IMG/VR virus record: IMGVR_UViG_3300028394_000037
Length of the DNA: 64,000 bases
Source: a virus
Direction: 5' to 3' (one strand)
This document shows, piece by piece, positions 4,894 to 33,209 of this stretch. The notes below the pieces were generated by a model. It did no database searches, was not told the origin of the DNA, and worked only from the letters and a program-made list of their open reading frames with translations. The position numbers were made by a program, and so were the translations under genes. The stretch's first letter is position 1. Each line of letters starts with the position of its first letter.

Positions 4894-6036
4894 TTAGTAA
4901 ATAGTCGTAATTTCATCAATCTCATTATAAACAATCACATTACCATTAAGTTCTTGTCTCATAAATTTTCCTTGGCCTGGACCAAATAAGACGCCACCAA
5001 ATTCATCATATATTGGGTCATAAGGAGCAAAGACATTTGCGCTGAGTGTTGTTGTTCCGACTCCAACATTTTCTTTAAACTCCAATGCAGTATAAGTTCC
5101 CAATCCACTGACACCTGCTTTTGCATAAGTTTCGGTTAAATCTCCAACATTAGTTGCTGGAAATTGTCTATAAGCACCTAAACCCCAAATAATTCTTACT
5201 GCACCAACACCACCAACACTTCCATATCTACCTAGATCGCCTCCACCACCTCCTCCACCACCAAAGTTTCCACCACCAACTAATATACTTCCAGCACCTG
5301 CAGTAGTTGAACCATTTTGACCACCACTACCTCCAGTACCTGGATTATTACTACTACCACCATTTCCACTTGCGCCTTGGCCAAGTATCCCAACACCACC
5401 ACCACCAGTACTAGCAGATACATGACTTCCACCGCCACCTCCGCCGCCGCCAGATCCATTTGCTCCAGCACCACCAGATCCGCCAGCACCACCATTACCA
5501 CTATATCCACCGGCCCCTCCTCCTCCGCCGGATCCTGAAACACCGGTGCCTCCGGCACCACCATTACCACCAGTTCCAACAATCACTGTTCCACCAGTAC
5601 CACCATTAAAATTACCATTAACAGTAAGACTATTTCCCTTTTGCCCACCACCTGCTTCTACAAGAGAAATTGCTCCCCTCTTCACATAACTATTTCCACC
5701 ATTACTTGCCGTACTTGTAGGAACAATGCCCGGTTGTCCAGATGTGCCAACTCCTACCGTTAATGTTTCTCCAGGTGTAACTAAAATACTATTCACATAT
5801 GCTAGAGCACCACCGCCACCTCCACCTTTAGCAGGAACGCCATTATCTCCACCTCCTCCTCCACCACCACCAACAGTAACCACACTAATAGTATCAACAC
5901 CAGTAGGCACAGTCCAACTAAAAGTTCCTGGAGTTATGAAAGAACTTTGCCCCGCAGAAACTATATAACCAACTTCATTAAACTCACCAGTAACAATCAT
6001 TGACCCAAATTGGTCTAATCTTCCTACAACTGGCAT
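4894..6036 (-). CDS. Glycine-rich (polyglycine-II type) putative adhesin/fibre tip protein, 380 aa
   Basis: Domain runs 'WTVPTGVDTISVVTVGGGGGGG...GAVRIIW'. It directly follows the long fibre gene, as T-even gp38 follows gp37. Confidence 0.65.
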   Translation of the reverse strand: MPVVGRLDQFGSMIVTGEFNEVGYIVSAGQSSFITPGTFSWTVPTGVDTISVVTVGGGGGGGGDNGVPAKGGGGGGALAYVNSILVTPGETLTVGVGTSGQPGIVPTSTASNGGNSYVKRGAISLVEAGGGQKGNSLTVNGNFNGGTGGTVIVGTGGNGGAGGTGVSGSGGGGGAGGYSGNGGAGGSGGAGANGSGGGGGGGGSHVSASTGGGGVGILGQGASGNGGSSNNPGTGGSGGQNGSTTAGAGSILVGGGNFGGGGGGGGDLGRYGSVGGVGAVRIIWGLGAYRQFPATNVGDLTETYAKAGVSGLGTYTALEFKENVGVGTTTLSANVFAPYDPIYDEFGGVLFGPGQGKFMRQELNGNVIVYNEIDEITTIY

Positions 6037-19798: not shown

Positions 19799-20215
19799 TT
19801 AGGACAATGAAGTTTCAAGAACCCATCCAGTTGTATTATCTCCTTGATATGCTTCTTCGTCCCAACGGTAAAATGAACGTGCTTCTACTTCTGCTTCGGT
19901 AAGTTCTGGTGCAGCACCAAGAGGTGATTGCCAATCAGCAGTTTCTTCTACGAGAACCCAAGAAGCAAATGGTTGTGGGGCAACAAAGGCATCAAGTTCC
20001 TCATTATAAGAATAACCAATAACTGCATATCTTACACGAATATTGTTATTATAAGAAGTCTGTTTCCAGTTAGTTTCTGCACCTAAAAGGTTTTTACAGA
20101 ATGCAATACCAATTTCTTCTACTTCTACTCCATTTGAATCGGTACAATCATCGTTTGATACTACGATGACTTGAGTTACAATGTTGCTTTCATTTAGTTG
20201 TGCGTAGTGAGCCAT
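19799..20215 (-). CDS. Acidic protein accompanying a Gly-rich tip protein (putative assembly chaperone), 138 aa
   Basis: MAHYAQL...VTQVIVV...WKQTSYN...DAFVAPQPFASW. Position directly after the Gly-rich gene. Confidence 0.6.
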   Translation of the reverse strand: MAHYAQLNESNIVTQVIVVSNDDCTDSNGVEVEEIGIAFCKNLLGAETNWKQTSYNNNIRVRYAVIGYSYNEELDAFVAPQPFASWVLVEETADWQSPLGAAPELTEAEVEARSFYRWDEEAYQGDNTTGWVLETSLS

Positions 20216-20279
20216 AAGAATTATAAGTTATAAAGTTTTTTAATAAATTTTTTTATTGTTGTAAAGTAAGTAAGATGAT

Positions 20280-22205
20280 TTAAAATGTTATAGAACCGGA
20301 TGCATCCCAAATATATGTTCTATATCCACCAGAAGGAGCTCCTGATGATGTAGTTCCTGTGGTTGAACTTGCCACTGAATATGCATCAGGATAACGAATT
20401 ACAATTCTACCAGATCCACCATTACCACCACCTCCACGATTTCCACAACCACCTCCACCACCGCCACTATTAGTGCCGCCAGAATCTCCACCTCTACTAT
20501 TATGTCCACCGCTGCCACCACCACCTGGTCCACCACTTCCAGGTCCATTAGAATCTGATCCACCGCCACCACCACCAGAATAAGTATTTCCAGTCATAGG
20601 ATCATATATTCCAGATCCTCCTGGTCCACCATTTGAAGATCCACCTTGAGCACCAGGATGAGGAACTGATCCGCCAGCACCACCGGCACCACCTCCGCCA
20701 CCACCGGATCCTTGATATGGATCATAATGCCCGTGATTTCCGGAACCACCAGGATTTCCTTGAGGTCCACCAGTTCCACCCTTAAAGTAATCATCGTTTG
20801 GAGAATCTCCATCTCCACCACCACCAGATGCACTACCAGGAGTACCAGGAACAGGACCACCACGAGCTCCACCCCACGCAGTTATTCCACCAAAACCAGA
20901 TTGTGATCCACTTCCACTTCCGCCTCCACCACCTCCAATAGTGATTGTATAAGGAGATCCAGGAGTAATTGGAGTTGTAGATGCCAGATATCCACCGGCA
21001 CCTCCACCTCCACCGCCACGTTCGTGTCCTTCTGATCCACCACCACCGCCTCCAACAACAAGATATTGAACACTAGTGGGTTTTGGTAACGTTACATTAA
21101 TAGAATTTGAGGTTACTGTTACAGAACCTGCAGTGTTTGTTGAAGTTGCATTCACTGTAATATTTTTACTCAAATCACCAGAAACAATAGTATAAGTACT
21201 TCCACCAGTTTGAACAGCAGATGCTCCACTATACCACACCCAACTTACTGATGAAGTTGGATTTGAAGAAAAAGTTGCCGTCGTATATGTGAGTGTAGAT
21301 CCAACAGTAGAGGATCCAGAAATAGTACCATCGGTTAATGAAGTATTGTATATGCTATTTGAACTAGAATTATCTAATGTAATATTTCCTGGTCCAGTAA
21401 ATTTATAATACTTGTACCCACTAACTGTACTAAAATTATAACTACCACTTACCGAAGATGCATCAGAATATGTGGAAGAGTACCTAATAATTACAACTCC
21501 TGGTCCTCCGCTTCCTCCGATACCATAGGGATCATTTCTTTGTCCTCCAGCGGCAGGTCCTCCATTTCCAGAATTTGATGGTTGTGGAGTTCCTGGAGAT
21601 GAATAATTCCAACCACTACCACTTCCACCTACTGCATATGTAACACCATCAAACCAAGTTCTTCCTACCCCACCAGAACCAGCAGCACCGTCAGTAACTC
21701 CATTGCCACCAACACCACCGGCACCGCCACCGCCACCACCGGTTCCTCTATCATTATCTGGAGTTCCTGTAGGTGGTCCATAATTACCACCTGGATAACC
21801 TTGTTGATTTGGTCCAGGGTATCCATAACCAGATCCACCGGCACCACCACCAGACCCACCAGGAGATCCAGGGGCACCTCCACCATAAGCTGTTATTGGA
21901 GTTATACTAGGACTAACTAATGTTGAAGGTTGTCCAGCACTACCACTAGGTCCACCATTACCAACTGAAATTGTAAAAACTGTTCCATTTAATATTTCAG
22001 TGGATGCAGATACATATCCTCCAGCACCTGCACCGTTTTGTCCATTCCAGCTAGGTCCTGGTCCAGGAGGTCCATTAGAACCACCACCTCCACCACCCAA
22101 CACCAAATAATCAATTAGTATCTTTGATGTAGTAGTAGATTTCTTACCAAATCCAAAACCACCACTAATAGCACCAATACCAAGTCTTGATAATAATGGA
22201 GACAT
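20280..22205 (-). CDS. Double glycine-rich-domain putative adhesin with central Ig-like domain, 641 aa
   Basis: Two YLV.GGGGGG...G.(V/I).IRY domains flank an Ig-like segment. N-terminus is MSPLLSRL...GFGFG. Confidence 0.7.
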   Translation of the reverse strand: MSPLLSRLGIGAISGGFGFGKKSTTTSKILIDYLVLGGGGGGSNGPPGPGPSWNGQNGAGAGGYVSASTEILNGTVFTISVGNGGPSGSAGQPSTLVSPSITPITAYGGGAPGSPGGSGGGAGGSGYGYPGPNQQGYPGGNYGPPTGTPDNDRGTGGGGGGAGGVGGNGVTDGAAGSGGVGRTWFDGVTYAVGGSGSGWNYSSPGTPQPSNSGNGGPAAGGQRNDPYGIGGSGGPGVVIIRYSSTYSDASSVSGSYNFSTVSGYKYYKFTGPGNITLDNSSSNSIYNTSLTDGTISGSSTVGSTLTYTTATFSSNPTSSVSWVWYSGASAVQTGGSTYTIVSGDLSKNITVNATSTNTAGSVTVTSNSINVTLPKPTSVQYLVVGGGGGGSEGHERGGGGGGAGGYLASTTPITPGSPYTITIGGGGGGSGSGSQSGFGGITAWGGARGGPVPGTPGSASGGGGDGDSPNDDYFKGGTGGPQGNPGGSGNHGHYDPYQGSGGGGGGAGGAGGSVPHPGAQGGSSNGGPGGSGIYDPMTGNTYSGGGGGGSDSNGPGSGGPGGGGSGGHNSRGGDSGGTNSGGGGGGCGNRGGGGNGGSGRIVIRYPDAYSVASSTTGTTSSGAPSGGYRTYIWDASGSITF

Positions 22206-22207
22206 AA

Positions 22208-23158
22208 TTAGAAGAAACCTCCACTTGCTGTACCAAATACTTGATAGTTTGCTGTGGTACTTGCACTACCAACAGTATTGATACCAGTAAAACTAAAGAT
22301 TGTATGCCCGGTTGAAGTGGTCACACCAGAGATTGCAGCACTCAAAGAACCACCAGCCCAACGAATTGTCTTTGATACTCCATTTAATGTAACAGCAGTA
22401 CAAGTTCTTGCAGTTCCCGTAGAGTTTGTAATCACTGCAAATGTAATAGCATAATCATCAAAATCAGAACTTGTTGGAATACCAGTTACCGCAAGTGTTA
22501 CATCGGCAGTTGGATTTGTTGTATATCCTACATTTGCACTTGAAGAATTATATGCAAGACTTACAGTATTTCCACTTGTTCTATAAACTTTCTCTGCACC
22601 TGTGACTGCTCTTGTTTCATTTGGTGACCAAGCAATATTAGTTTCAAGTGCTTTCTTGGTATCATTATAAGTTAATGTCTTATTGGTTGTACCGTAGATT
22701 GTGATTCCTGAACCATCAGCAAGAGCATCAGATGGGGTTGTTGTAGAACCAATACCAATATTCTTATCTGCGACTTCTAATGACGTTGTATTGATAATGG
22801 TTTGAGTACCATTAACTGTCAAATTAGTGAATGTTGCACCAGTACCAGTTATATTTCCTACAGTTATATTAGGACTTCCAGAAAGTCCATAAGCAGTTGC
22901 TGCTGCTGTTGCGGTGGATGCAGTACCAGAAAGATTGTATGCAGTAGTTGCAAAAGATACCGATGAAATACCAGTTAGATTTGCACCAGAACCATAATAA
23001 GAAGTTGCACTTACAATACCAGCAACCTGCAAAGTTGTTGTTGGATTTGTTGTGCCAATACCAACTCGTTGATTTGCATTGTCAAGTTGAAGAACAGCAC
23101 CAGCAGTACCGATGCCGGAACTAAAATCTGCAATTCTTGATGCGTTGGTAATAGCCAT
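22208..23158 (-). CDS. Short fibre/adaptor protein, 316 aa
   Basis: Paralogue of the ORFs at 26142 and 30581 (shared FTNLTVNGTQTIINTTSLEVADKNIGIGSTT core). Ends SGGFF. Confidence 0.7.
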   Translation of the reverse strand: MAITNASRIADFSSGIGTAGAVLQLDNANQRVGIGTTNPTTTLQVAGIVSATSYYGSGANLTGISSVSFATTAYNLSGTASTATAAATAYGLSGSPNITVGNITGTGATFTNLTVNGTQTIINTTSLEVADKNIGIGSTTTPSDALADGSGITIYGTTNKTLTYNDTKKALETNIAWSPNETRAVTGAEKVYRTSGNTVSLAYNSSSANVGYTTNPTADVTLAVTGIPTSSDFDDYAITFAVITNSTGTARTCTAVTLNGVSKTIRWAGGSLSAAISGVTTSTGHTIFSFTGINTVGSASTTANYQVFGTASGGFF

Positions 23159-23205
23159 TATCGTTTTTTAGATATTTATGTTAATCAAAGTGTCTTAATA
23201 AAATT

Positions 23206-23559
23206 TTATTGCAAAGGAATTTGTGGTAAAACAACTTCATTCGGTGATGAAAATGTTTTGGTAATATCTCTTAATTCTTGTCTATACTGTTTCCATTCAT
23301 CAGAAATAGGATTTTTATTTTCCATTGATGATACAACAATCCAATCAGATGAAGTCAATAACTGATTTCTAACAAGTCTTACAGTTTCCCAATCTGGAAA
23401 TAATATATTTTCTTGTCTGATAAAAGTTTCATTTACATATTCATCTCCTATAAATGCTCCTTCAGCGGAGACCCATCCATTTTGCAATGCTTCTTCTTCC
23501 GAACAAATTACAATATTTTTTACAATTTTATCTTCAATAATTGCGTATTTAAATGACAT
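23206..23559 (-). CDS. Tail fibre assembly chaperone-like protein, 117 aa
   Basis: WETVRLVRNQLLTSSDW...EWKQYRQELRDIT...P is the typical phage tail assembly chaperone motif. Confidence 0.75.
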   Translation of the reverse strand: MSFKYAIIEDKIVKNIVICSEEEALQNGWVSAEGAFIGDEYVNETFIRQENILFPDWETVRLVRNQLLTSSDWIVVSSMENKNPISDEWKQYRQELRDITKTFSSPNEVVLPQIPLQ

Positions 23560-23571
23560 TAGTTTTACCTC

Positions 23572-24573
23572 TTAGTATTCAATAATGATTGCACCTTGTT
23601 GACCATTACTCCCTGTAGGTGCGCCACCTAAACCATACCCAGTTGCTTGTGGAGCATCTCCAGAAACATAAGCCTGAACTGTAGATACTGCTGCAAATCC
23701 ACCATAAAGATTTATTTGCCCACCTGAACCTTGTGATATCCCTAATGGAGAACTATTTCCACGAACTCCTCCTGTCCCTGTTATGGTTACTGTATTATAT
23801 GTGAAGGTTGTATCTCCACCAACAGCTCCATAATAACCAGAGTCTCCCAACCCTCCAGCTCCAATAGCATAACTTGCAGTTGTTCCCGAACCTACTATAT
23901 AATACCTAATAGATGTTCCACCACTTCCTCCTCTAACATAAGTTCCACCAGCATTAAAAGAACCACCAGCACCACCACCAGTAGCATAAACTTTTATTAG
24001 ACTAACTCCAGATGGAACAGTCCAAGAAGTTCCGGATGTAAGTGTAACATATGTGGAAAATCCAATGCTTCCTGATGTTAGAGATAAACTACTCGCACTA
24101 ACAGTTCCTACAGTAATATTAGGACTTCCAGAAAGTCCATAAGCAGTTGCTGCTGCTGTTGCGGTTGATGCAATTCCAATTAAATTATATGCAGTAGTTG
24201 CAAAAGCAACTGAAGTTGCTGCGCCAGCAATTGTGCTTACACCGAGAACATTTAAGTTGCCAGTGATAGTTACATTTCCATTTACGGTTCCACCAGAATT
24301 TACATTCAGAGCATCAGCAACACGAAAGTCATCAAATACCTGAAATTCTATCGGGTCTCCTAATATTGCTGGTGAAAGTAGAGTAACTGTGGAACCATCA
24401 CGAGCAGTATAATCAAGAGAATCTACCAGTCTTGAACCATTTCTAAATACAGAAATTTGATTGATTCTATAACCACCAGTTACCGTGAAAAGTGTTTGTC
24501 CGGCAGTTGCAGTAACACTTATAGTTTTTGATGAAATATTGCCCGTGAGTGATACGGGATTACCTATTGCCAT
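23572..24573 (-). CDS. Fibre protein with fused C-terminal Gly-rich domain, 333 aa
   Basis: N-terminal domain resembles the 30581 ORF (VFRNGSRL...DY). Contains the shared adaptor stalk, then WTVPSGV...GGG...GAIIIEY. Confidence 0.7.
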   Translation of the reverse strand: MAIGNPVSLTGNISSKTISVTATAGQTLFTVTGGYRINQISVFRNGSRLVDSLDYTARDGSTVTLLSPAILGDPIEFQVFDDFRVADALNVNSGGTVNGNVTITGNLNVLGVSTIAGAATSVAFATTAYNLIGIASTATAAATAYGLSGSPNITVGTVSASSLSLTSGSIGFSTYVTLTSGTSWTVPSGVSLIKVYATGGGAGGSFNAGGTYVRGGSGGTSIRYYIVGSGTTASYAIGAGGLGDSGYYGAVGGDTTFTYNTVTITGTGGVRGNSSPLGISQGSGGQINLYGGFAAVSTVQAYVSGDAPQATGYGLGGAPTGSNGQQGAIIIEY

Positions 24574-24604
24574 AGTATTACTTTTTTAGTTATTTATGGC
24601 GATA

Positions 24605-25234
24605 TTATTTCAAAAATTTTCTTAGATTTTGAGTGAATAATGCACCTGGTTCAGAATGATCATATCTAAAAAGAACATCAAATCCTAATGTAATTCTTGG
24701 GATATCATTATTGTGAATAGTTGTCCAGTGAAGATAATAAGGAGGAAACAATGTTATCTCACCTTCCTTATTCTCAATTTCAATTATTTCATCTCCATAC
24801 TTATAATAAGTGGATGTGTTGAAAACACATATTGACATAGTTCCAGAAATAAAACTCCAAAGGTCATACTCCTCAGAATGCTTATGCATCCCAATATTTT
24901 CTGAAGATCTTATTACATTTAACCAACCACTAACAGCAGGATCTAATTGATCATTCGTAAAATGTTTTGGTGATAGTATATTGTCAACATAATCCCAATA
25001 ACATTCTTGTATAAAATTAAATAAGGTTTCTAAATCAGTATTTTCTGCAGCATAATCAAATATATTATAAGCACAGGAACGAGTTGATACGTGAGTATCA
25101 TTTAATTTTGTACCAAAATCACTCATATATGGATATCTATTAAGAATTTCTTCTTCTTTACTTAAAAGAAAGTCTGATAATTTGGATATTTCAATGCGAT
25201 TTCCTATTGAATAAGTCTTAATAAATTGTTGCAT
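24605..25234 (-). CDS. Putative 2OG-Fe(II) oxygenase, 209 aa
   Basis: WLNV...MHKH...SGTM...GEITLFPPYYLHWT...RITLGFD gives an HxH...H...R pattern. Confidence 0.75.
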   Translation of the reverse strand: MQQFIKTYSIGNRIEISKLSDFLLSKEEEILNRYPYMSDFGTKLNDTHVSTRSCAYNIFDYAAENTDLETLFNFIQECYWDYVDNILSPKHFTNDQLDPAVSGWLNVIRSSENIGMHKHSEEYDLWSFISGTMSICVFNTSTYYKYGDEIIEIENKEGEITLFPPYYLHWTTIHNNDIPRITLGFDVLFRYDHSEPGALFTQNLRKFLK

Positions 25235-25236
25235 TT

Positions 25237-26145
25237 TTATGGAATAGTAAAGGTCTGATCTGAACCGGTGTAACTAAATCTATACTTAACGTCATCTACA
25301 ATAATAATACAATATCCTGGATTGCCATTATAATCTCCTACCCCATAAACATTACCACCACTAATCCAATCGGGATCTGATTTTGCTTGTGGATGTTGTT
25401 CAGATCCCCATGCCGTATTATTGTTATAAACTGTTTCAATTTTTGGATGAGAAACATATGAAGATCCACCGCCACCTGCACCAGAAGCACAAGCACCACA
25501 GTCTCCATTACCTCCACCTCCACCATAATATCCACCACCCCCGCCAGAACCTTTACAACTCATACCATACCCACCATTCATAAAATACCCATCCTGACCA
25601 GCAGATCCACCACCACCAAATCCACCAGTTCCGGCACCACCTCCATTGCTTTGTGATCCACCACCAGAACCTCCGCCTCCAGGAGCTCCTTGAGGACCGC
25701 CGCCACCCCCAGCAGAAGTTTCTGTACTATCTGTTGACCCTCCAGATCCTCCACCAGCAGCAAGTATCATAGATGATTGATCTACTGAAGGAGTATTTAA
25801 ACCAATATATGATCCACCACCTCCAGAACCTCCACCATCACCACCTCTGGGAGCACCACCACCATACGTTCTACTATCACCATTAGCTGATCCACCTTGT
25901 CCAACCATAATACGAAGAACATTACCAGTTACTAATTCACCATCACGAAATTTTACATAGACAAATCCGCCACCGGCACCATTATAACCACCATTAAATC
26001 CACCACAACCTTGAGATGCTCCTCCACCAGCACCCCATAACTTTATCTCTACTGTTTTAAAACGCTTAACACCTCTACGTCTTCCAAATCCAAAACCACT
26101 TCCGGCAGAACCAGAACCAAACATTCTTGATAAAATAGGACTCAT
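25237..26145 (-). CDS. Glycine-rich putative adhesin, 302 aa
   Basis: MSPILSRM...GFGFG start, then KLWGAGGG...GGGSSY domain. Overlaps the upstream adaptor gene by 4 nt. Confidence 0.7.
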   Translation of the reverse strand: MSPILSRMFGSGSAGSGFGFGRRRGVKRFKTVEIKLWGAGGGASQGCGGFNGGYNGAGGGFVYVKFRDGELVTGNVLRIMVGQGGSANGDSRTYGGGAPRGGDGGGSGGGGSYIGLNTPSVDQSSMILAAGGGSGGSTDSTETSAGGGGGPQGAPGGGGSGGGSQSNGGGAGTGGFGGGGSAGQDGYFMNGGYGMSCKGSGGGGGYYGGGGGNGDCGACASGAGGGGSSYVSHPKIETVYNNNTAWGSEQHPQAKSDPDWISGGNVYGVGDYNGNPGYCIIIVDDVKYRFSYTGSDQTFTIP

Positions 26146-27161
26146 CTAAATCCTCCATTCACAACACCAAGTACATAATAGTTTGCAGTTGTACTTGCAC
26201 TTCCTATGGTATTGATGCCAGTAAAGTTATAGATATCCATTCCACTTGTGGTAGTCACACCAGAAGTAGCAGCACTCAAAGAACCACCAGCCCAACGAAT
26301 AGTTACACTATAACCATTTAATGTAACAGCAGTACAACTTCTTGCGGTTCCAGTTTGAATTACCATTACTCCAAATGAGATTGAATGATTATCAAAATCA
26401 GAACTTGTTGGAATATTTGTGACTGCTAAAGTAATATTACCAGATGGGTTAGTGCATAATCCAATATTTGATGATGATCCATTATATACAAGACTTGCAG
26501 TATTTCCATCTATTCTTGTAAGTTTTTCTGCAACACTTATAAATCTTGTTTCTGTTGTTGCCCAAGCAACATTAGTTTCAAGTGCTTTCTTGGTATTATT
26601 ATAAGTTAGTGTCTTATTAGTTGTTCCATAAATCGTGATACCTGAACCATCAGCAAGAGTATCAGATGGTGATGTGGTTGAACCAATACCTATATTCTTA
26701 TCTGCGACTTCCAATGAAGTTGTATTGATAATGGTTTGAGTACCATTCACTGTTAAGTTTGTAAATGTTGCAGCAGAACCAGTTACATTTCCTACAGTAA
26801 TATCCGGACTTCCTGTTAGACCATAAGCAGTTCCTGCTGCTGTTGCGGTTGATGCGGTTCCCGTTAAACTGCCAGTAACAGTTCCTACAGTTATATTAGG
26901 ACTTCCCGTTAATCCATAAGCAGTTCCTGCTGCTGTTGCTGTGGATGCAATTCCAATTAAATTATATGCAGTAGTTGCAAAAGATACTGATGAAATACCA
27001 GTTAGATTTGCACCAGAACCATAATAAGAAGTTGCACTTACAACACCAACAACATTCAACTTAGATGTTGGGATTGTACTTCCAATGCCTACGTTATTAT
27101 TGGAATCTACTGTAAGTGCATTTGTATTTGATAATCGTGACAGTTCGCGGGCGCGTGTCAT
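26142..27161 (-). CDS. Short fibre/adaptor protein, 339 aa
   Basis: MTRARELS start, shared core, ends NGGFR. Confidence 0.7.
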   Translation of the reverse strand: MTRARELSRLSNTNALTVDSNNNVGIGSTIPTSKLNVVGVVSATSYYGSGANLTGISSVSFATTAYNLIGIASTATAAGTAYGLTGSPNITVGTVTGSLTGTASTATAAGTAYGLTGSPDITVGNVTGSAATFTNLTVNGTQTIINTTSLEVADKNIGIGSTTSPSDTLADGSGITIYGTTNKTLTYNNTKKALETNVAWATTETRFISVAEKLTRIDGNTASLVYNGSSSNIGLCTNPSGNITLAVTNIPTSSDFDNHSISFGVMVIQTGTARSCTAVTLNGYSVTIRWAGGSLSAATSGVTTTSGMDIYNFTGINTIGSASTTANYYVLGVVNGGFR

Positions 27162-27180
27162 TATACGTTTTCTATTTTAG

Positions 27181-27351
27181 TTATTTATCAGATACAACAA
27201 TACCACCGAACTCATAGAGTTCGGCAGTAGCATCTTTTTTTAGGTTATAAATTTTACGGTTTTCATATTCAGTTGTCCATTGGTGATTTCCTTCATAAAA
27301 AATCACCTCGGTACGATCTTGTATCTGATGTTCTTTCTGAATGTGATACAT
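27181..27351 (-). CDS. Small hypothetical protein, 56 aa (not in the ORF track)
   Basis: Manual translation MYHIQKEHQIQDRTEVIFYEGNHQWTTEYENRKIYNLKKDATAELYEFGGIVVSDK fills the intergenic gap. Confidence 0.6.
   Translation of the reverse strand: MYHIQKEHQIQDRTEVIFYEGNHQWTTEYENRKIYNLKKDATAELYEFGGIVVSDK
27201..27229 (-). terminator. Strong hairpin, possible terminator or processing site
   Basis: TACTGCCGAACTC-TAT-GAGTTCGGTGGTA forms a 13-bp stem including G-U pairs. The U-rich tail is weak. Confidence 0.4.
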
Positions 27352-27367
27352 AACTTTTTTTAATTAT

Positions 27368-28078
27368 TTATCGTGCGGCATCAAATGCACAGTGAGCACG
27401 TTCTCCATCGGCAAGAACATAATGAAAGAAGATTTGATGATAATAATCTTGTACTGGTTTTCTAAAAAGTCTCTTCTTGACTCCACCGGGCATCGGTTCT
27501 CTCCAGTGTGGACGTTCACATCCCTTATAAAGCAATCCATCACCGGGTTCTAGATACAAAGAACGTTCTTCACCGGTAGATGTAATCACTTCCTTCTTCT
27601 TATCCAAATAAGTATCAGGAGTTTTGATGATAAATGGCCACCACTCTTTTAAAGATGTACTGATATGAACACTCACCGAAATCTCACAGGCATCTCTGTC
27701 TGCGTGTTTCTTGAGTTCTTGTCCTGAAAAATAAAACCTATCATAATAATAAGTATTATAAAGTTTCCGTCCAATTACCTCTTCCAGTTTGAGACGAATA
27801 CCGGTATGTATCTTCTTATACTGTGGATGAGAATATCGTGCCAGAGAACCATTCACTTGTGCTTCTTCTGGATTGTGATGAAATCTATCCACAGAACCAA
27901 AATAATTGATTTGCCCCCTTTCTTCTGGAACCGGATGATAAAGTTCCTTGGAATCCCATAGATTCTTGAGAACAAGATATCCGTTCTTTTCAAAACTCTC
28001 ATTACGTGTCCATGCAGTTCCCGTATTTCTACGTTCCTGCATCATCAATTCTAGTTCGTTATATTCACATTGTGCCAT
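27368..28078 (-). CDS. Putative 2OG-Fe(II) oxygenase, about 236 aa
   Basis: LKKHADRDACEISVS...GDGLLYKG...HWR gives an HxD...H pattern. Start moved to ATG 28078 to avoid overlap with the upstream gene. Confidence 0.75.
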   Translation of the reverse strand: MAQCEYNELELMMQERRNTGTAWTRNESFEKNGYLVLKNLWDSKELYHPVPEERGQINYFGSVDRFHHNPEEAQVNGSLARYSHPQYKKIHTGIRLKLEEVIGRKLYNTYYYDRFYFSGQELKKHADRDACEISVSVHISTSLKEWWPFIIKTPDTYLDKKKEVITSTGEERSLYLEPGDGLLYKGCERPHWREPMPGGVKKRLFRKPVQDYYHQIFFHYVLADGERAHCAFDAAR

Positions 28079-28079
28079 A

Positions 28080-28700
28080 TCAGACCCACCTCTTACCAAC
28101 CGTCCACCCGACAATGCTCTTACGAACACCCTTTGTGACTTTCAGAACACGATGTTGAGTACGTGAATCAAAGAGTACAATCGTTCCACGCTTTCTTGGA
28201 GCAAAATAACTATTGCCACCTTCATCAATGAACTGAACGTTGCCACCTTCATAATCATCAGGACCAGAGAGTTGTAGAGAGAAGGAAAGTTTCCTTACAA
28301 GTTCAATATTCTCATTCACAAAATCATTTGCAAGTCCTTCTGCACGATTACCAACAGATTGAGGTTTATATTGAGTTGCAAGTCCTGCATCATTGTGCCA
28401 ACCATAAAACTCACCTTCACCATAACGGGTATATTGAAGACTTTCACCATCAATATTCCTCAAATCATACAAGAAGTTCTCACGATTTGCACGTTGAACA
28501 TAGTGCCACAGAAAACCAGCAACCCAGTGAGTTGTAGGAATCCAAGTGTTTTGTGAGTTTCTCTTTTCCTTATTCAGGGCATCTCCATGAAGTCTAGAGT
28601 CTGCCATCTGTGAGTCAAAATTTTCTGTTAAATCTTTTTCAATAATATTTACAATATCTTCTGGAAGATTTGTATAATACCAAACTGACTGTAGAGCCAT
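28080..28700 (-). CDS. 2OG-Fe(II) oxygenase, prolyl-4-hydroxylase/PKHD-like, 206 aa
   Basis: QYTRY...YGWHND...RKLSFSLQL...YEGG...FDS...HRV...RKSIVGW. Confidence 0.88.
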   Translation of the reverse strand: MALQSVWYYTNLPEDIVNIIEKDLTENFDSQMADSRLHGDALNKEKRNSQNTWIPTTHWVAGFLWHYVQRANRENFLYDLRNIDGESLQYTRYGEGEFYGWHNDAGLATQYKPQSVGNRAEGLANDFVNENIELVRKLSFSLQLSGPDDYEGGNVQFIDEGGNSYFAPRKRGTIVLFDSRTQHRVLKVTKGVRKSIVGWTVGKRWV

Positions 28701-28723
28701 ATGATTATAATGTAGTCAAAGGT

Positions 28724-28752
28724 ATTTTATCAGATGTTGAGGAGAATGTCAA
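28724..28752 (-). promoter_or_regulatory. sigma70-type (early) promoter
   Basis: TTGACA-17 bp-TAAAAT with an extended -10 TG, upstream of the oxygenase ATG at 28700. Confidence 0.8.
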
Positions 28753-28766
28753 ATAAATTTTTTTAC

Positions 28767-29711
28767 TTATGTCAGATACCTAATTACAATAACTCCATCT
28801 TGCCCCATACCAGCACCTCCTCCTCCACAACTGGCACCACCACCACCAGATCCAGCAGTACTAGGTATTGTTGGATAAGTTGCAGGAGGAGCATCTACTG
28901 GTCTCGATGTTCCACTTCCTCCTCCAGATGTATTTAAATTTGTTCCTATAGGGTTAGTAAAACTTGATCCACCATTATTTCTAGTTCCACCTCCAGATGG
29001 GATACTTGTCATAACACCTGGTCCATTATATCCCCCTCCACCACCGCCAAATCCACCATTATCTCCCGTTTGTCCTGGACCATTTTGTCCAGATGTTGAA
29101 CCAGGTACATAGGAACCAGAACCACCTCTCGAACTACCACCTCCTGGAGATCCACCAGGAGCACCTCCACCTCCACCACCACCGCCGCCACCAGCTACAA
29201 TATAAAAAATAGACCCTGGACCAGGAGGTTGCGACACTCCAGTAAAACCACCGCCTGCGCCACCACCTCCAGAACTCCCATCAGGACCAGCAGCACCAGG
29301 ATCTCCTCCGCCGTTATTTCTAAACCCAGATCCACTATTATTTGGCCCGCTCCCGCCGTGGTTTGGACCTGCTTCTCCCCTACCACCAACATATACTGTA
29401 TAATTTCCAGGAGAGAAAGTAAAAGTTCCTTTTGATATTCCTCCAGAAGATCCTGATATTCCATCATCTGATGGGAAAAAATCTCCACCACAATCTCCAC
29501 CACCTCCACCTCCGCCACCACCTATCGCAACAATTTCAACATTATTTTGTCCTGCGGATACAGTAAAAGTTTCTGAACCTGGTGTTGTAAAAGTATGAAT
29601 TGTATACGAACCAGAAAAAGTTTTTGTGCCACCAGTCGCAGAAAAAGGAATAGGACCCTCACCAGCACTCCTACCAAACCCAAACTTCAACCCAGTAAAA
29701 AGAGGTGCCAT
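28767..29711 (-). CDS. Glycine/proline-rich putative adhesin, 314 aa
   Basis: MAPLFTGLKFGFGRSAGEG start, then VAIGGGGG...GVIVIRY domain. Confidence 0.7.
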   Translation of the reverse strand: MAPLFTGLKFGFGRSAGEGPIPFSATGGTKTFSGSYTIHTFTTPGSETFTVSAGQNNVEIVAIGGGGGGGGGDCGGDFFPSDDGISGSSGGISKGTFTFSPGNYTVYVGGRGEAGPNHGGSGPNNSGSGFRNNGGGDPGAAGPDGSSGGGGAGGGFTGVSQPPGPGSIFYIVAGGGGGGGGGGAPGGSPGGGSSRGGSGSYVPGSTSGQNGPGQTGDNGGFGGGGGGYNGPGVMTSIPSGGGTRNNGGSSFTNPIGTNLNTSGGGSGTSRPVDAPPATYPTIPSTAGSGGGGASCGGGGAGMGQDGVIVIRYLT

Positions 29712-29723
29712 AATATCAAACTC
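29655..29723. repeat. 69-bp direct repeat, copy 1
   Basis: Identical to 30520-30588 except position 29704/30569. Confidence 0.95.
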
Positions 29724-30576
29724 TTACTATTATTGCAACAAAAACTCTTTGAGGAGATCCTGTACCACCACCACCGCCATCACGAGCACCAATCGGAGCA
29801 GGCCAGTCGTTCCATCCGGTTCCACCTCCACCTCCACCGCCGCCACCACCAGCACCTACACCAGATCCACCTACACCTCCAGAACCACCATTTGCATAAG
29901 AACCAGGATCTTTATAAAGATCCCCACCAATATTACCTGGATTGGCATTGACTGATGCAGGTGGAAGTGGTGTTGTTATGTCACTTGGATATGGGGATGA
30001 ATTTAATGAAATTACTAATCCACCGGCACCACCACCACCAACGCCACCAGCATATCCGTTTGATGCACCTCTTGATGATTGAGTCGGTCCTCCAGCTCCA
30101 GCACCAAAACTGTATACAGAAGTAAATGAATTTAGTGCAGTTATTGCATCACTAGTATTGGAATATGGAGTGCCATTAGAATTACTCATCGCCAAAGATC
30201 TACCATCTCCAGTGGTCCCTGAAGTCTGAAATTGAACAGCAGAAGAATAAAAAGGATCAGAATAATTTGCCTTTACATTTAAAGTTCCGCCAGTTGCCAA
30301 ACTATTAAAAGGAACATTAATATATGCAGCAACATTAGATTGACCACCGGCACCACCAGAGGTAGCACCAGAGGCAGGAGCGGCAGCATTACCTCCAGGA
30401 GATCCATTAGAACCGGTTCCGGCAACAATAACAACTTTTGCGCTATTTGCCTCTGATTGAGTTAATGTGACACTTAAATCACTTGAACTAAAATAATATT
30501 GTTGTGATGGTGTAGCAGCACCCTCACCAGCACTCCTACCAAACCCAAACTTCAACCCAGTAAAAAGAAGTGCCAT
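29716..30576 (-). CDS. Glycine-rich putative adhesin, 286 aa
   Basis: MALLFTGLKFGFGRSAGEG start followed by a Gly-rich body unlike that of the 314-aa neighbour. Confidence 0.7.
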   Translation of the reverse strand: MALLFTGLKFGFGRSAGEGAATPSQQYYFSSSDLSVTLTQSEANSAKVVIVAGTGSNGSPGGNAAAPASGATSGGAGGQSNVAAYINVPFNSLATGGTLNVKANYSDPFYSSAVQFQTSGTTGDGRSLAMSNSNGTPYSNTSDAITALNSFTSVYSFGAGAGGPTQSSRGASNGYAGGVGGGGAGGLVISLNSSPYPSDITTPLPPASVNANPGNIGGDLYKDPGSYANGGSGGVGGSGVGAGGGGGGGGGGTGWNDWPAPIGARDGGGGGTGSPQRVFVAIIVRV

Positions 30577-30588
30577 AATATCAAACTC
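30520..30588. repeat. 69-bp direct repeat, copy 2
   Basis: Lies 865 bp from copy 1. Confidence 0.95.
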
Positions 30589-31837
30589 CTACAGTACCTT
30601 GACGGAACCCACCATTCTTGGTGACATAAACCTGATAACTACTTGCAACAGTATTTGTACCACCAGTATAATGTACGAAGAATGATACAAAATCTATATC
30701 ACTTGCAGTCGTAGAAAGTGTCACAGTGGTTGCACTACCTACCAGTGCTCTGGTTGAGATACCAGCAACTGTTGCACCATCCTCAAATCCAATCACAAAA
30801 CAGTTAGTACCAATACCAGTTGCTGCTGTTGTGTTTGCAGTTCCTGTTGCGTTCTGTGTAAAGATAACAGTAATCGTTGTACCATTAGAAACACCAGTAT
30901 CAGCAGGCATATTCTTAAAGGATACAATACCTACACTACCATTTGATAAACTATGAGTATAAGTCGTTGCATTTCTTACATCTAACTCAAGAACAACTCT
31001 ACCACCACCTAAGTCATAAGTAGATCCGGTAGATACTGTTTCTATAACACCCTTAAACTTACTTGGTTGGTTATACTCAAAGCATCCAGTATCTCTTTCC
31101 CAGGTGATTGTTTTATTTGTAGTGCCATAAATCGTGATTCCTGCACCATCAGCAGTTACATCAGATGGTGATGTGGTTGAACCAATACCTATATTCTTAT
31201 CTGCTACTTCCAGACTTGTGGTATTGATAATGGTTTGAGTACCGTTAACCGTAAGATTAGTAAAGGTTGCAGCAGAACCAGTTACATTTCCTACAGTAAT
31301 ATTTGGTGTGCCAGAAAGTCCATAAGCAGTTCCTGCTGCTGTTGCAGTGGATGCAGTTCCCGTTAAACTACCAGTAACAGTTCCTACAGTTATATTAGGA
31401 CTTCCCGTTAATCCATAAGCAGTTCCTGCTGCTGTTGCTGTGGATGCAATTCCAATTAAATTATATGCAGTAGTTGCAAAAGATACAGAAGAACCAGCAG
31501 ATAATGTAGTGGTTCCATTGACCGTAAGATTTCCAGAAATAGTGAAATTTCCAACAGCACTGGGAGCAGCAAGATTATATGCCTTATATGCAACTAATTC
31601 AAGAATATCTCCGCTTTGTGCTGCTGATGATAATCCTACTGTTGAAGTATCGGTTGCACTGAAATCTTGCCCTTCAATTTGACGAGCACCATTCAGGTAA
31701 ACGTCAAGATATCCAATCTGATATCCTGCGGCAAAAGTAAAGTTAGTTTGTACTCCTGTTGGAGAAAATACTTGTTTTGCAACAACAATTGGAGATGTAT
31801 CAGGACTATATCCAATATAACCATACTTTAATGACAT
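30581..31837 (-). CDS. Fibre/adaptor protein, 418 aa
   Basis: N-terminal DVYLNGARQ...DF domain, shared core, ends NGGFRQGTVGV. Confidence 0.7.
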   Translation of the reverse strand: MSLKYGYIGYSPDTSPIVVAKQVFSPTGVQTNFTFAAGYQIGYLDVYLNGARQIEGQDFSATDTSTVGLSSAAQSGDILELVAYKAYNLAAPSAVGNFTISGNLTVNGTTTLSAGSSVSFATTAYNLIGIASTATAAGTAYGLTGSPNITVGTVTGSLTGTASTATAAGTAYGLSGTPNITVGNVTGSAATFTNLTVNGTQTIINTTSLEVADKNIGIGSTTSPSDVTADGAGITIYGTTNKTITWERDTGCFEYNQPSKFKGVIETVSTGSTYDLGGGRVVLELDVRNATTYTHSLSNGSVGIVSFKNMPADTGVSNGTTITVIFTQNATGTANTTAATGIGTNCFVIGFEDGATVAGISTRALVGSATTVTLSTTASDIDFVSFFVHYTGGTNTVASSYQVYVTKNGGFRQGTVGV

Positions 31838-32367
31838 TAGGCAACTCCTTGCAAAATGGCCAAGGTAACATCAAGAGAGTTTACAACACTTGAACCAACG
31901 CGAATTTCATCGCTTGCATTCAAAAGTGTCTTACCAGCATCACTAATTATAACTGAACTTCCTGCAGGAACAGGAACTTTATAGAGTAAATTATAACTTG
32001 TAGAACCACTTGATACCTGAACCGTTGCAGAGACTTGGTTCGTGGTATTGTTTGCTAATGTTCCACCAATCAAAATACTCTTCAATCCAGTTGATGCATA
32101 TATCGTTGTAAGTCCAACAAAATTAACCGATTGGGATGAAGTTGCCGAAGTGTTTGTGGATGTGCTATCCACAGTAACTTGTCCTGCACCAATTGCAGAA
32201 ACCTTTGAACCACCAATGAAGTTTCCGTTATCCACAAGATAACCAACCAAAACTCCTGCGGTTGAAATTCCAGTAATAATTGTGGAGGTAATTCCAATAG
32301 AACCAGAAGAACTAGTTGTTACCACTCCGACTGCTTTCTTAAGTGCGTTTGTAAATACTTCTGCCAT
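31837..32367 (-). CDS. Small fibre-associated beta-domain protein, 176 aa
   Basis: VPVPAGSS...GKTLLNASDEIRV...AILQ resembles the 115-aa ORF. It follows a gene ending LAIALGG. Confidence 0.65.
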   Translation of the reverse strand: MAEVFTNALKKAVGVVTTSSSGSIGITSTIITGISTAGVLVGYLVDNGNFIGGSKVSAIGAGQVTVDSTSTNTSATSSQSVNFVGLTTIYASTGLKSILIGGTLANNTTNQVSATVQVSSGSTSYNLLYKVPVPAGSSVIISDAGKTLLNASDEIRVGSSVVNSLDVTLAILQGVA

Positions 32368-32396
32368 TTTTCTTTACGTGTTAGTGTTATTTATTA

Positions 32397-33170
32397 TTAA
32401 CCGCCTAAAGCGATTGCAAGACCAAGTGATACTCCAGGAGCAGGTAAATACACATTTGATGTATTACCTGATTGTGATGCAGTTAATCCCGTTCCAACAA
32501 AATTCACAGTTGTAATGGCAGTCCCAACTGAGACTCCACCAGATTGAATACCAATTGAACCACCAGAACTTGCAGAAACTCCTGATAATTTAGAACCATC
32601 ACCATAATAAGTAACAGAACTACCAACAATACTAGAAGTTACAATACCAGAAGAAATTTGAAGTGTTCCAAGAGTAGAAACACCAGTTACATTTAAATTT
32701 TGAGTTGTGGTAATACCTGTTGCATTTAAATTAAGAGTTGTTGCTTGACTATTAGCAGTAATATTTCTGACTGTTACTTCATCAAGTGTTATATCATCTT
32801 CAACAACCAAATCACCAGTAACTCTTACATCACCCTTTACATAAAGTGCTGTTGCTCCTGTAGAAACCGGAGAACGAACATCTAATAAGTATGCAGGTGC
32901 TGCGGTTCCAATACCAACAGAACCACCAACACCAGTAAGAGTTGTTCCGTTAGTTCCTACACTTAACTTTGTTACAAAGGTTCCTACACCAACAGTATAT
33001 AAATTATTTCTTATATAAGCATCAGTAACGCCAATTCCACCGGCAACATCAAGTAGATATCCTGGTTGCGAAGTACCAATACCCACCTTGCCAGTTGTTG
33101 CATTGGCAAGAATAAGCTTCTGATTTACTTCTAATCCGTTTTTGACTACAAAATTCTTATTGACAGACAT
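32397..33170 (-). CDS. Short fibre protein, 257 aa
   Basis: NKNFVVKNGL start, VGIGT modules, ends VSLGLAIALGG. Confidence 0.7.
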   Translation of the reverse strand: MSVNKNFVVKNGLEVNQKLILANATTGKVGIGTSQPGYLLDVAGGIGVTDAYIRNNLYTVGVGTFVTKLSVGTNGTTLTGVGGSVGIGTAAPAYLLDVRSPVSTGATALYVKGDVRVTGDLVVEDDITLDEVTVRNITANSQATTLNLNATGITTTQNLNVTGVSTLGTLQISSGIVTSSIVGSSVTYYGDGSKLSGVSASSGGSIGIQSGGVSVGTAITTVNFVGTGLTASQSGNTSNVYLPAPGVSLGLAIALGG

Positions 33171-33201: not shown

Positions 33202-33209
33202 TATTTATA
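33202..33209 (-). promoter_or_regulatory. T4-type late promoter TATAAATA
   Basis: Exact consensus upstream of 33170. Confidence 0.8.

What the first reader, a model, noticed from the sequence alone, without database searches (positions are those of the whole stretch)
19799..33170. Modular 'adaptor + docking-peptide adhesin + helper' cassette array: candidate plug-in receptor-binding system
Seen: four consecutive units are each built as fibre/adaptor, then Gly-rich tip, then helper gene. (A) 418 aa > 286 aa + 314 aa > two oxygenases. (B) 339 aa > 302 aa > oxygenase. (C) 333 aa with a fused tip > chaperone. (D) 316 aa > 641 aa > 138-aa protein. B, C and D each have their own late promoter; A follows the promoter at 32388. 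All four free tip proteins begin with a hydrophobic peptide ending FGFG(K/R), and all three cognate adaptors end in Y.V.....GGF(F/R). The two similar adaptors (316, 339) precede MSP(L/I)LSR-type tips, while the divergent adaptor (418) precedes LFTGLKFGFG-type tips. Unit C, where the tip is fused, lacks both motifs. Established: T-even gp38 adhesins are polyglycine-II proteins docked on the fibre end. Inference: a co-evolving socket/plug code lets one virion or population display several interchangeable adhesins.
Basis: partly seen in the sequence, partly recalled or inferred. Interest (0 to 1): 0.85.

Follow-up and report, generated by a model that had tools for sequence, protein, structure and literature searches.

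The report
Plug-and-socket cyanophage tail-fibre cassettes
An uncultured T4-like cyanophage encodes several host-recognition fibres as gene pairs: a stalk that always ends in the same small domain, and a swappable head that always starts with a matching short peptide; this looks like a snap-on system for exchanging receptor-binding heads, as already proven in Klebsiella phages, but built from a different, undescribed domain family.

Summary
On the minus strand, three fibre genes (418, 339 and 316 aa) end in a related C-terminal domain of about 135 aa, the "socket". Each is followed within a few bases by Gly-rich genes (286+314, 302 and 641 aa) that open with a conserved peptide, the "plug". 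These motifs occur nowhere else in the 108-kb record.

The pairing is general.
- 44 of 45 distinct socket genes from viral metagenomes are followed at -4 to +12 nt by a gene starting M-(S/A)-P or M-P-F.
- All 52 plug-bearing ORFs found sit in socket-led cassettes.
- In five whole records, 10 of 10 such ORFs follow sockets.
- The socket is C-terminal in 118 of 118 family representatives.
- Socket and plug classes always match. The 418-type pairs with the F-T-G plug, also in the cultured phage Bellamy.

The same plug heads unrelated bodies: Gly-rich ALK/Pam3-type or ConA-type lectin.

Not supported:
- The "helper" is not a conserved third part.
- FGFG is not universal.
- Binding was not shown.

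The principle is known (T2/S16 gp37-gp38; Klebsiella docking peptides). The socket family is uncharacterised. The scan noted similar junctions on other DNA. Verdict: a new variant of a known kind, of moderate to high interest.

The parts
30581..31837 (-). Adaptor A, 418 aa. It has an N-terminal anchor domain, a shaft shared with adaptor B, and a class II socket (about aa 300-418) whose tail is ...N-G-G-F-R-Q-G-T-V-G-V.
   Evidence: phrog_36132, 1.2e-80; 57% identical to Bellamy gp53; socket profile 4.5e-21
29716..30576 (-). Tip A1, 286 aa, with a class II plug (M-A-L-L-F-T-G-L-K-F-G-F-G-R). The body is moderately Gly-rich (23%) and has no Pfam hit.
28767..29711 (-). Tip A2, 314 aa, with the same class II plug as A1. 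It is 34% Gly and ends in the V-I-V-I-R-Y motif typical of the Gly-rich family.
   Evidence: weak phrog_2295
29652..29727 (.). Copy 1 of a 76-nt direct repeat. It spans the last codons and stop of the upstream gene, the spacer and the plug codons.
   Evidence: family D12, 96% identical to 30517-30592
30517..30592 (.). Copy 2 of the 76-nt direct repeat. Together the two copies bracket the 286-aa tip gene.
26142..27161 (-). Adaptor B, 339 aa, with a class I socket (aa 204-339) and tail ...N-G-G-F-R. Its stop overlaps the tip's start codon (ATGA).
   Evidence: AF2 beta-sandwich, pLDDT 85-94 for the socket; 1.5e-67
25237..26145 (-). Tip B, 302 aa. It has a class I plug followed by a TNF-like plus glycine-rich domain.
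   Evidence: PF12810, 32.8 bits against a cut-off of 24.5; profile against ALK GRD, 4.5e-8
23572..24573 (-). Unit C fibre, 333 aa. The anchor, shaft and Gly-rich head are in one chain, with no socket and no plug.
   Evidence: PF21722, 23.2 bits, just under the cut-off; phrog_18345, phrog_863
23206..23559 (-). Tail-fibre assembly chaperone, 117 aa, for unit C.
   Evidence: PF16778, 49.4 bits; phrog_4912
22208..23158 (-). Adaptor D, 316 aa, with a class I socket and tail ...S-G-G-F-F. A 2-nt spacer separates it from the tip gene.
   Evidence: 3.7e-63
20280..22205 (-). Tip D, 641 aa. It has a class I plug followed by two Gly-rich domains separated by an Ig-like stretch.
   Evidence: (PF21722, 3e-26, two stretches)
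19799..20215 (-). 138-aa protein of unknown function (phrog_7759). It is sometimes found directly after tips in relatives. It is not shown to be a helper.
28080..28700 (-). 2OG-Fe(II) oxygenase, 206 aa. It is a neighbour of the cassettes, not a conserved part of them.
   Evidence: (PF13640, 1e-13)
27368..28078 (-). 236-aa protein that travels with the 206-aa oxygenase (phrog_2954). It has only a weak 2OG-type hit.
24605..25234 (-). 209-aa 2OG-Fe(II) oxygenase-like protein. It is a neighbour of unit B.
   Evidence: PF13759, 25.9 bits against a cut-off of 27; phrog_81, 2.8e-16
31837..32367 (-). 176-aa conserved protein (phrog_26609) ahead of adaptor A. Its stop overlaps the start codon of adaptor A. 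A homologue precedes the fibre gene that carries the same anchor domain in phage S-SM2.
32397..33170 (-). 257-aa fibre-like protein (baseplate wedge initiator-like). It is the upstream end of the stated region and not part of a socket/plug pair.
   Evidence: phrog_8215

Best explanation
These are two-gene tail fibres.

The first gene makes a trimeric stalk, the adaptor. Its last ~135 residues fold into a conserved beta-sandwich, the socket. The next gene is translationally coupled to it (spacing -4 to +3 nt). It makes the receptor-binding head, whose first ~7-25 residues, the plug, are disordered on their own and dock onto the socket. [quoted passage not shown]

Heads are interchangeable. They are mostly TNF-like plus glycine-rich domains of the Pam3 gp24 / ALK type, and sometimes ConA-type lectin domains. 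The conserved junction also serves as a site of homologous recombination through which heads are swapped or added, as in unit A, where two heads share one socket.

The genome keeps at least two socket/plug classes that never mix. It therefore probably carries several kinds of fibre at once.

Shown:
- gene architecture and conserved adjacency;
- class matching;
- module boundaries;
- selection on the peptide at the protein level;
- the fold family of the heads.

Inferred: the physical docking, its stoichiometry, and the presence of the heads in the virion.
For: 1. Adjacency. 44 of 45 distinct socket genes are followed at -4 to +12 nt by a gene starting M-(S/A)-P or M-P-F. All 52 distinct plug ORFs in the fetched DNA sit in socket-led cassettes: 42 class I, 9 class II and 1 tandem second tip. 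A position-blind pattern scan of five whole records (72-205 kb) gave 10 real ORFs, all behind sockets, and 4 non-ORF chance hits.

2. The socket is strictly terminal. In 118 of 118 near-full matches among 50%-identity representatives it ends 0-3 residues from the C-terminus. Those proteins range from 142 to 2018 aa.

3. Classes match without exception: 42 to 0 and 0 to 9. Sub-classes match as well. The cultured phage Bellamy follows the same rule in gp50/51 and gp53/54.

4. Within this window, adaptors A and B share 86-89% identical shaft DNA but only about 27-34% identical sockets, and each keeps its own plug type.

5. Module boundary. Eight pairs have plugs at least 75% and sockets at least 79% identical while the head bodies are under 30% identical. 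Plug identity tracks socket identity (r = 0.46, Mantel p <= 0.001) more than head bodies do (r = 0.19). The same plug sits on a lectin body in L017 and on a Gly-rich body in L019.

6. Selection acts on the peptide. Conserved P3 uses four codons, S6 uses both AGY and TCN codons, and R7 uses AGA, AGG, CGA and CGT.

7. The socket is conserved (54% mean column identity) while the heads are not. This is the reverse of what a receptor-binding tip would show.

8. Heads: PF21722 and PF12810 above their cut-offs, and a profile match to ALK GRD at 4.5e-8. This is the fold that forms the receptor-binding end of the Pam3 fibre (PMC9608196).

9. In the AF2 models the plug has pLDDT 53-62 with no secondary structure. 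The adaptor tail is the last strand of a confident sandwich.
Against: - There is no direct evidence of binding and no virion proteomics for any member.
- All the support is comparative. Cassettes are inherited as units, so the counts are not phylogenetically independent.
- Most loci were fetched through the socket. Only searches are free of that sampling bias.
- Part of the conservation of the adaptor tail may serve translation. In class I the GG codons read GGAGG 6-9 nt before the tip's ATG. The ATGA overlap forces the R/M-S covariation.
- Adaptors B and D have sockets of the same class and similar plugs, so a fine 'code' that keeps them apart is not evident.
- The socket fold has only weak matches to solved docking domains.
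Confidence: 0.6

Rival explanations
1. The junction is conserved mainly for reasons at the DNA and translation level: a recombination linker for cassette exchange, plus a ribosome-binding site and start region for translational coupling. The heads attach to the virion elsewhere, or not through the socket.
For: - A 76-nt near-identical repeat brackets the 286-aa gene.
- In G004 a tip is preceded only by a 36-aa remnant carrying the last 14 socket residues.
- In class I the GG codons of the tail form GGAGG at ribosome-binding-site distance.
- Spacing of -4 to +3 nt indicates coupling.
Against: - Conserved plug residues use many synonymous and even non-interconvertible codons.
- The whole 135-aa socket is conserved, not just its last codons.
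- In class II and in Bellamy the G-G-F motif lies 27 nt or more from the start codon, and the ribosome-binding site is elsewhere.
- Classes never mix even where the shafts are homogenised.
Confidence: 0.15
2. The Gly-rich and lectin proteins are assembly factors, like T4 gp38. They bind the adaptor's C-terminus transiently to fold or trimerise it and are not part of the virion.
For: In T4 itself, the gene downstream of gp37 encodes a chaperone rather than an adhesin (established knowledge). The position of the genes and the coupling would fit this equally well.
Against: - The heads are homologous to the receptor-binding end of a solved virion fibre, Pam3 gp24.
- They reach 641-851 aa, vary greatly and include lectin domains. 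That is typical of receptor binders, not chaperones.
- A classical Tfa-type chaperone exists separately for unit C.
Confidence: 0.1
3. The socket domain is itself the distal receptor-binding knob of each fibre. The downstream genes are independent fibres or accessory proteins that merely share a conserved N-terminal virion-attachment peptide.
For: - The domain is always C-terminal, as receptor-binding knobs are.
- Its best fold matches are ends of phage spikes and fibres (Pa223 spike, Z 6.7).
- Conserved N-terminal peptides can target other virion sites, as in the Klebsiella systems.
Against: - The socket is far more conserved than the heads and than the adaptors' own N-terminal parts.
- Plug class follows socket class exactly.
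- Adaptors as short as 142-152 aa consist of little more than the socket.
Confidence: 0.1

Closest known systems
T2/T6/S16-type long tail fibre tip: gp37 trimer plus gp38 adhesin (S16 gp38, PDB 6F45)
   Same: - A separately encoded Gly-rich adhesin is encoded directly downstream of the fibre gene.
- It attaches by its N-terminal part to the fibre's C-terminal end.
- Conserved segments flank hypervariable receptor-binding loops and promote recombination.
   Different: - There is no sequence membership: no GP38 Pfam hit.
- The S16 attachment part is a small helical domain (PMC9608196), whereas here it is a peptide of about 7-25 residues.
- The fibre end here is a distinct 135-aa beta-sandwich family.
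- Heads here also include lectin folds.
- Several cassettes occur per genome.
Branched receptor-binding proteins with a 'conserved peptide' docking on a T4gp10-like branching domain (Klebsiella KP32, KP34, K11; K1-5/K1E/SP6; G7C; CBA120)
   Same: - A short conserved N-terminal peptide (7 or more residues, hydrophobic) on an otherwise variable receptor-binding protein is matched to a conserved docking domain on another protein.
- The peptide differs between phage groups.
- Binding and modular exchange have been shown experimentally there (PMC6872550, PMC13352976).
   Different: - The docking domain here is strictly C-terminal (end-on, not a side branch). It sits on an adaptor that has no binding head of its own.
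- There is no detectable sequence relation to T4 gp10, and fold similarity is only weak (Z 4.3 to the CBA120 TSP4 N-terminal part).
- The hosts are cyanobacteria and the heads are not depolymerases.
Cyanophage Pam3 fibre gp24 with chaperone gp25 (PDB 7YPX/7YFW; PMC9608196)
   Same: - It has the same TNF-like plus glycine-rich head family.
- Unit C (333 aa plus a 117-aa PF16778 chaperone) has the same one-chain-plus-chaperone layout.
   Different: In Pam3 the head is fused to its stalk, with no socket and no plug. Units A, B and D split stalk and head into two genes.
T4 long tail fibre joints (gp34-gp35-gp36-gp37), from general knowledge of T4
   Same: The fibre is assembled end to end from the products of consecutive genes.
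   Different: The joint domains are different. T4 has one fixed chain rather than arrays of interchangeable heads.

Membership tests
T-even gp38 adhesin family | Sequence membership (Pfam GP38 model) | tested here: not met
   No such hit for any of the five Gly-rich proteins at E <= 0.01. The hits are to PF21722 and PF12810 instead.
T-even gp38 adhesin family | Encoded directly downstream of the fibre gene whose tip it caps | tested here: met
   Spacing is -4 to +4 nt in the window and -4 to +12 nt in 44 of 45 relatives.
T-even gp38 adhesin family | Binds the C-terminal end of the fibre trimer | not testable with these tools
   This needs pull-down, cryo-EM or a conclusive complex model.
TNF-like plus glycine-rich (TG) domain: ALK/LTK GRD (PF12810), Gly_rich_2 (PF21722), Pam3 gp24 | Profile match above the curated cut-off | tested here: met
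   - 302 aa: PF12810, 32.8 bits against 24.5.
- 641 aa: PF21722, 93.3 bits against 24.3, two stretches.
- The family profile A4 matches ALK GRD chains at 4.5e-8.
- 333 aa is just under the cut-off (23.2 bits).
- 286 and 314 aa have no Pfam hit and are placed only by alignment A4.
TNF-like plus glycine-rich (TG) domain: ALK/LTK GRD (PF12810), Gly_rich_2 (PF21722), Pam3 gp24 | Fold similarity to solved TG domains | tested here: inconclusive
   The model of the 302-aa tip has mean pLDDT 58. The top Foldseek rows are ALK/LTK (E 1.5e-3 and weaker), and Pam3 7ypx scores E 5.5.
Docking peptide plus T4gp10-like branching domain (branched receptor-binding proteins) | Short conserved N-terminal peptide on receptor-binding proteins whose bodies vary | tested here: met
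Docking peptide plus T4gp10-like branching domain (branched receptor-binding proteins) | Docking domain homologous to T4 gp10 domains 2/3 | tested here: inconclusive
   - No PDB sequence match.
- Foldseek: TSP4 N-terminal part E 9e-3, gp10 E 0.86.
- VIA: Z 4.3 to TSP4 residues 79-180 and Z 6.7 to the Pa223 spike.
All of these are below the level at which fold identity is safe.
Docking peptide plus T4gp10-like branching domain (branched receptor-binding proteins) | Docking domain lies inside a primary receptor-binding protein that carries its own distal binding domain (a side branch) | tested here: not met
   The socket ends 0-3 residues from the C-terminus in 118 of 118 representatives.
Tail-fibre assembly chaperone (PF16778, Tfa / Pam3 gp25 type) | Profile match above the cut-off, encoded directly after the fibre gene | tested here: met
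   The 117-aa protein scores 49.4 bits against 26.6 and lies 12 nt after the 333-aa gene. The 138-aa protein of unit D does not match.
2OG-Fe(II) oxygenase superfamily | Profile match above the cut-off | tested here: met
   - 206 aa: PF13640, 52.4 bits against 27.
- 209 aa: 25.9 bits against 27, borderline, plus phrog_81 at 2.8e-16.
- 236 aa: only weak hits.

The most novel reading that the evidence does not exclude
T4-like cyanophages and their relatives use a set of mutually orthogonal socket/plug classes. At least five tail/peptide types were seen, with up to five cassettes in one genome. With these they mount several different receptor-binding heads on one virion. They exchange heads by recombination at the junction, including two alternative heads competing for one socket. 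That would make host range combinatorial and readable from sequence.
Probability: 0.3. Interest if true: 0.75.

Novelty: new variant of a known kind. Interest (0 to 1): 0.6.

Why it matters
The receptor-binding proteins of T4-like cyanophages are poorly defined. Every member of this family seen here that carries an annotation is labelled 'hypothetical protein'. A rule readable from sequence would pick out candidate receptor-binding heads in hundreds of marine and freshwater phage genomes: the gene that follows a socket and starts with the matching peptide is the head of that fibre.

The rule would also explain how several heads can coexist in one genome. It gives a defined junction for studying host-range evolution in phages that control globally important cyanobacteria. 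The cultured phage Bellamy carries the class II pair, so the idea can be tested directly.

Tried and rejected
- Complex prediction. Three copies of the 200-residue adaptor end plus three copies of the first 40 tip residues, both given as alignments, scored 0.01 against a mark of 0.32. The tool returned 'no answer'. This is neither support nor evidence against binding.
- Megablast of the whole region, and tblastn of a Gly-rich tip, against 50,697 GenBank phages found nothing. The low-complexity filter probably hid the tip.
- tblastn of the class I socket against the same phages found nothing even at E <= 1. Only class II is found in an isolate, Bellamy.
- The socket profile against PDB sequences found nothing. 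Fold searches gave only weak phage-fibre matches.
- The tip model was too poor (pLDDT 58) for a firm fold call.
- The 138-aa protein could not be linked to the Tfa chaperone (E 4.4) or to any Pfam family.
- A three-part 'adaptor + tip + helper' cassette was rejected after the neighbourhood count.
- Read-through or frameshift fusion of adaptor and tip was rejected, because the spacing puts the two genes in all three relative frames.
- Rosetta-stone fusion. One 309-aa representative (P0262) reads from the socket tail straight into a plug and a Gly-rich body. Its contig has an obvious frameshift just upstream in the same gene, so it was not counted.
- S-SM2 gene 034 shares adaptor A's anchor domain but has no socket, so it is not a fused form.

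Full report
**Source and layout.**
The window is bases 353-64352 of a 107.8-kb IMG/VR viral record estimated to be about half complete. It has the baseplate and tail-fibre gene order of a T4-like cyanomyovirus. A D1-like (psbA-type) ORF lies further along the record, judged from its N-terminal residues only, and the order is syntenic with Synechococcus phage S-SM2. Every gene of the finding is on the minus strand.

**Check of the observation.**
- One correction: the 418-aa protein continues six residues past G-G-F-R.
- In the whole record, FGFG near an N-terminus and GGF(F/R) near a C-terminus occur only in these seven ORFs.
- A profile of the adaptor's C-terminal domain finds only the three adaptors: E 1.5e-67, 3.7e-63 and 4.5e-21.
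- Spacing is tight. The 339/302 pair overlaps in ATGA; the other pairs are 2-4 nt apart.
- The two unit-A tips owe their near-identical plug (one residue apart in the first 19) to a 76-nt repeat, 96% identical, that brackets the 286-aa gene. They therefore count as one observation.

**What the parts are.**
- The 641-aa tip has two PF21722 domains. The 302-aa tip matches PF12810 above its cut-off.
- A profile of 22 tips matches the ALK glycine-rich domain in the PDB at 4.5e-8.
- This TNF-like plus glycine-rich fold forms the receptor-binding end of the Pam3 cyanophage fibre gp24. That fibre needs the chaperone gp25 (PMC9608196).
- Unit C repeats that layout: a 333-aa fibre with a fused Gly-rich end, followed by a 117-aa PF16778 protein.
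- The adaptors share a C-terminal domain of about 135 aa. AlphaFold2 models it as a beta-sandwich (pLDDT 85-94) whose last strand is the Y-x-V...G-G-F tail.
- That domain has no Pfam model, and no PDB sequence relative was found for it.
- Its best fold matches are phage spike and fibre pieces: Pa223 spike Z 6.7, KP1 baseplate and a tailspike Z 5.0, and the CBA120 TSP4 N-terminal part Z 4.3. All are too weak to name the fold.
- Predicted viral structures with this fold are common: 160 matches at E <= 0.001, including fibres of Synechococcus phages S-H38, ACG-2014c and S-SM2.

**Survey of relatives.**
- A search of viral contigs with the adaptor alignment returned 73 distinct loci. The 65 that cover the socket domain hold 45 distinct socket genes.
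- Forty-four of these are followed at -4 to +12 nt by a gene beginning M-(S/A)-P or M-P-F.
- The adaptors range from about 150 aa to more than 1,170 aa.
- The downstream bodies are Gly-rich (20-36% Gly), ConA-type lectin (PF13385), or unknown.
- In the reverse direction, all 52 distinct plug-bearing ORFs in the fetched DNA lie in socket-led cassettes: 42 class I, 9 class II and one tandem second tip.
- Those loci were fetched through the socket, so five whole records (72-205 kb) were also scanned with a degenerate DNA pattern for the plug start. Ten hits start real ORFs and all ten follow socket tails. The other four hits are chance, with ORFs of 22 aa or fewer.
- Among 50%-identity representatives of 1.8 billion proteins, 879 match the socket at E <= 0.001 and 115 at E <= 1e-30.
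- In all 118 near-full matches the domain ends 0-3 residues from the C-terminus. These proteins range from 142 to 2018 aa.
- At least 1,747 clusters at 90% identity exist. All but one of those that carry a name are called 'hypothetical protein', and none has a Pfam domain.

**Class matching.**
- Tails of the G-G-(F/Y)-(F/W/Y/R) type go with M-(S/A)-P-(I/L)-(I/L)-S-R plugs.
- S-G-G-Y-R-R-Y goes with M-A-P-I-V-T-S-L.
- N-G-N-F-K and G-G-F-N have their own plug types.
- The 418-type tail always goes with P-x-F-T-G plugs.
- The cultured Synechococcus phage Bellamy has the class II pair twice, in gp50/51 and gp53/54. All four genes are annotated as hypothetical.
- Within the window, adaptors A and B share 86-89% identical shaft DNA, but their sockets differ (27% identity over the 136-aa socket, 34% over the last 200 aa). 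Each keeps its own plug class.
- Plug identity follows socket identity (r = 0.46, Mantel p <= 0.001), whereas head bodies follow it only weakly (r = 0.19).
- Eight pairs combine near-identical socket and plug with unrelated bodies. The module boundary therefore lies just after the plug.
- Conservation is at the protein level: several codon families encode the conserved Pro, Ser and Arg.

**Caveats.**
- Cassettes are inherited as units, so the counts are not independent events.
- In class I the two Gly codons of the tail read GGAGG at ribosome-binding-site distance from the tip's start. The ATGA overlap ties a final Arg to an M-S start. Fine covariation at those positions says nothing about protein contact.
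- In class II and in Bellamy the G-G-F motif is far from the start codon and is still conserved.
- Sockets B and D are of one class (74% identical over the last 200 residues; 66% over the 136-aa socket), with similar plugs. A code that separates them is not evident.

**The 'helper' genes.**
- Oxygenases lie within 3 kb of 10 of 45 cassettes, usually upstream as a 206+236-aa pair.
- The 138-aa family is near 7 of 45 and directly after the tip in two.
- A Tfa-type chaperone is near 1 of 45.
- The conserved unit is therefore the gene pair, not a triplet.

**Comparison with known systems.**
- The logic is that of T2/S16 gp37-gp38.
- It is closer still to the conserved docking peptides that attach secondary receptor-binding proteins to T4gp10-like branching domains in Klebsiella and coliphages (PMC6872550). 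Peptide-domain binding has now been shown there experimentally (PMC13352976).
- The differences here are: a distinct and strictly C-terminal docking domain, an end-on arrangement, Gly-rich or lectin heads rather than depolymerases, several classes per genome, and cyanophage hosts.
- The scan's notebook records similar junction ideas on other DNA. I treated these as leads only.

**Verdict.**
The plug-and-socket reading is well supported by comparative evidence but is unproven physically (confidence 0.6). The helper part and the FGFG-centred motif definition do not generalise. This is a new variant of a known principle and involves a large uncharacterised domain family.

Noticed in passing
window 27181-27351 (-): An unannotated 56-aa ORF lies between the oxygenase pair and adaptor B. 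Relatives have an 84-85-aa homologue at the same place (L004 238-495, L005 3205-3459), with a shared H-I-Q-H...V-I-F-Y-(Q/E)-G-(D/N)-(N/H)-(H/Q)-W-T-T motif.
   Followed up: partly
window 28701-28766 (-): A sigma-70-like promoter (TTGACA, 17 nt, TAAAAT) lies in front of the 206-aa oxygenase, inside an otherwise late structural region.
   Followed up: no
window 4894-6036 (-) and 6041-13246 (-): A further Gly-rich protein (380 aa, PF21722) follows the 2401-aa giant fibre protein after a 4-nt gap. It starts M-P-V-V-G-R-L, which is plug-like, but the giant protein has no socket domain by profile. This may be a different junction type.
   Followed up: partly
window 33205-35352 (-) and 35349-41192 (-): The 715-aa protein has a Gly-rich C-terminal part ending in an I-V-I-R-K-V motif. 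Its start overlaps the stop of the 1947-aa fibre gene (ATGA). This is another coupled pair without the socket or plug motifs.
   Followed up: no
window 22208-23158 and 26142-27161 (N-termini); L081 1482-1898 and 5084-5545; L096 39463-39828: The N-terminal peptides of adaptors B and D (M-T-R-A-R-x-L-S... and M-A-(I/V)-T-...-A-D-F-(S/T)-S-G-I-G-T-A-G-A) occur as separate small genes in phage Bellamy (gp49, gp52) and S-SM2 (gene 039). Fibres may therefore be split at a second junction in other phages.
   Followed up: partly
L084 (G004:C1:35636-38649): A 316-aa Gly-rich tip is preceded only by a 36-aa ORF remnant that carries the last 14 residues of a socket. Its plug is near-identical to that of the next cassette. 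This gives a second head for one socket, like unit A of the window.
   Followed up: partly
L097 3001-3930 (protein P0262): This is an apparent in-frame fusion of a socket tail, plug and Gly-rich body in a 216.7-kb long-read contig. The same adaptor has a frameshift about 200 nt upstream, so the fusion may be an assembly error.
   Followed up: partly
L036 4303-4575; L039 4390-4890: Homologues of the 138-aa protein (phrog_7759) lie directly after the tip gene in two relatives, as in unit D. Elsewhere they lie upstream of adaptors. Their function is unknown.
   Followed up: partly
window 22671-22970, 26605-26904, 31104-31403: A 300-nt block is 81-86% identical among the three adaptor genes, and shorter blocks are shared with the unit C fibre (24091-24215). 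The identity stops where the socket begins, which suggests gene conversion limited to the shafts.
   Followed up: partly
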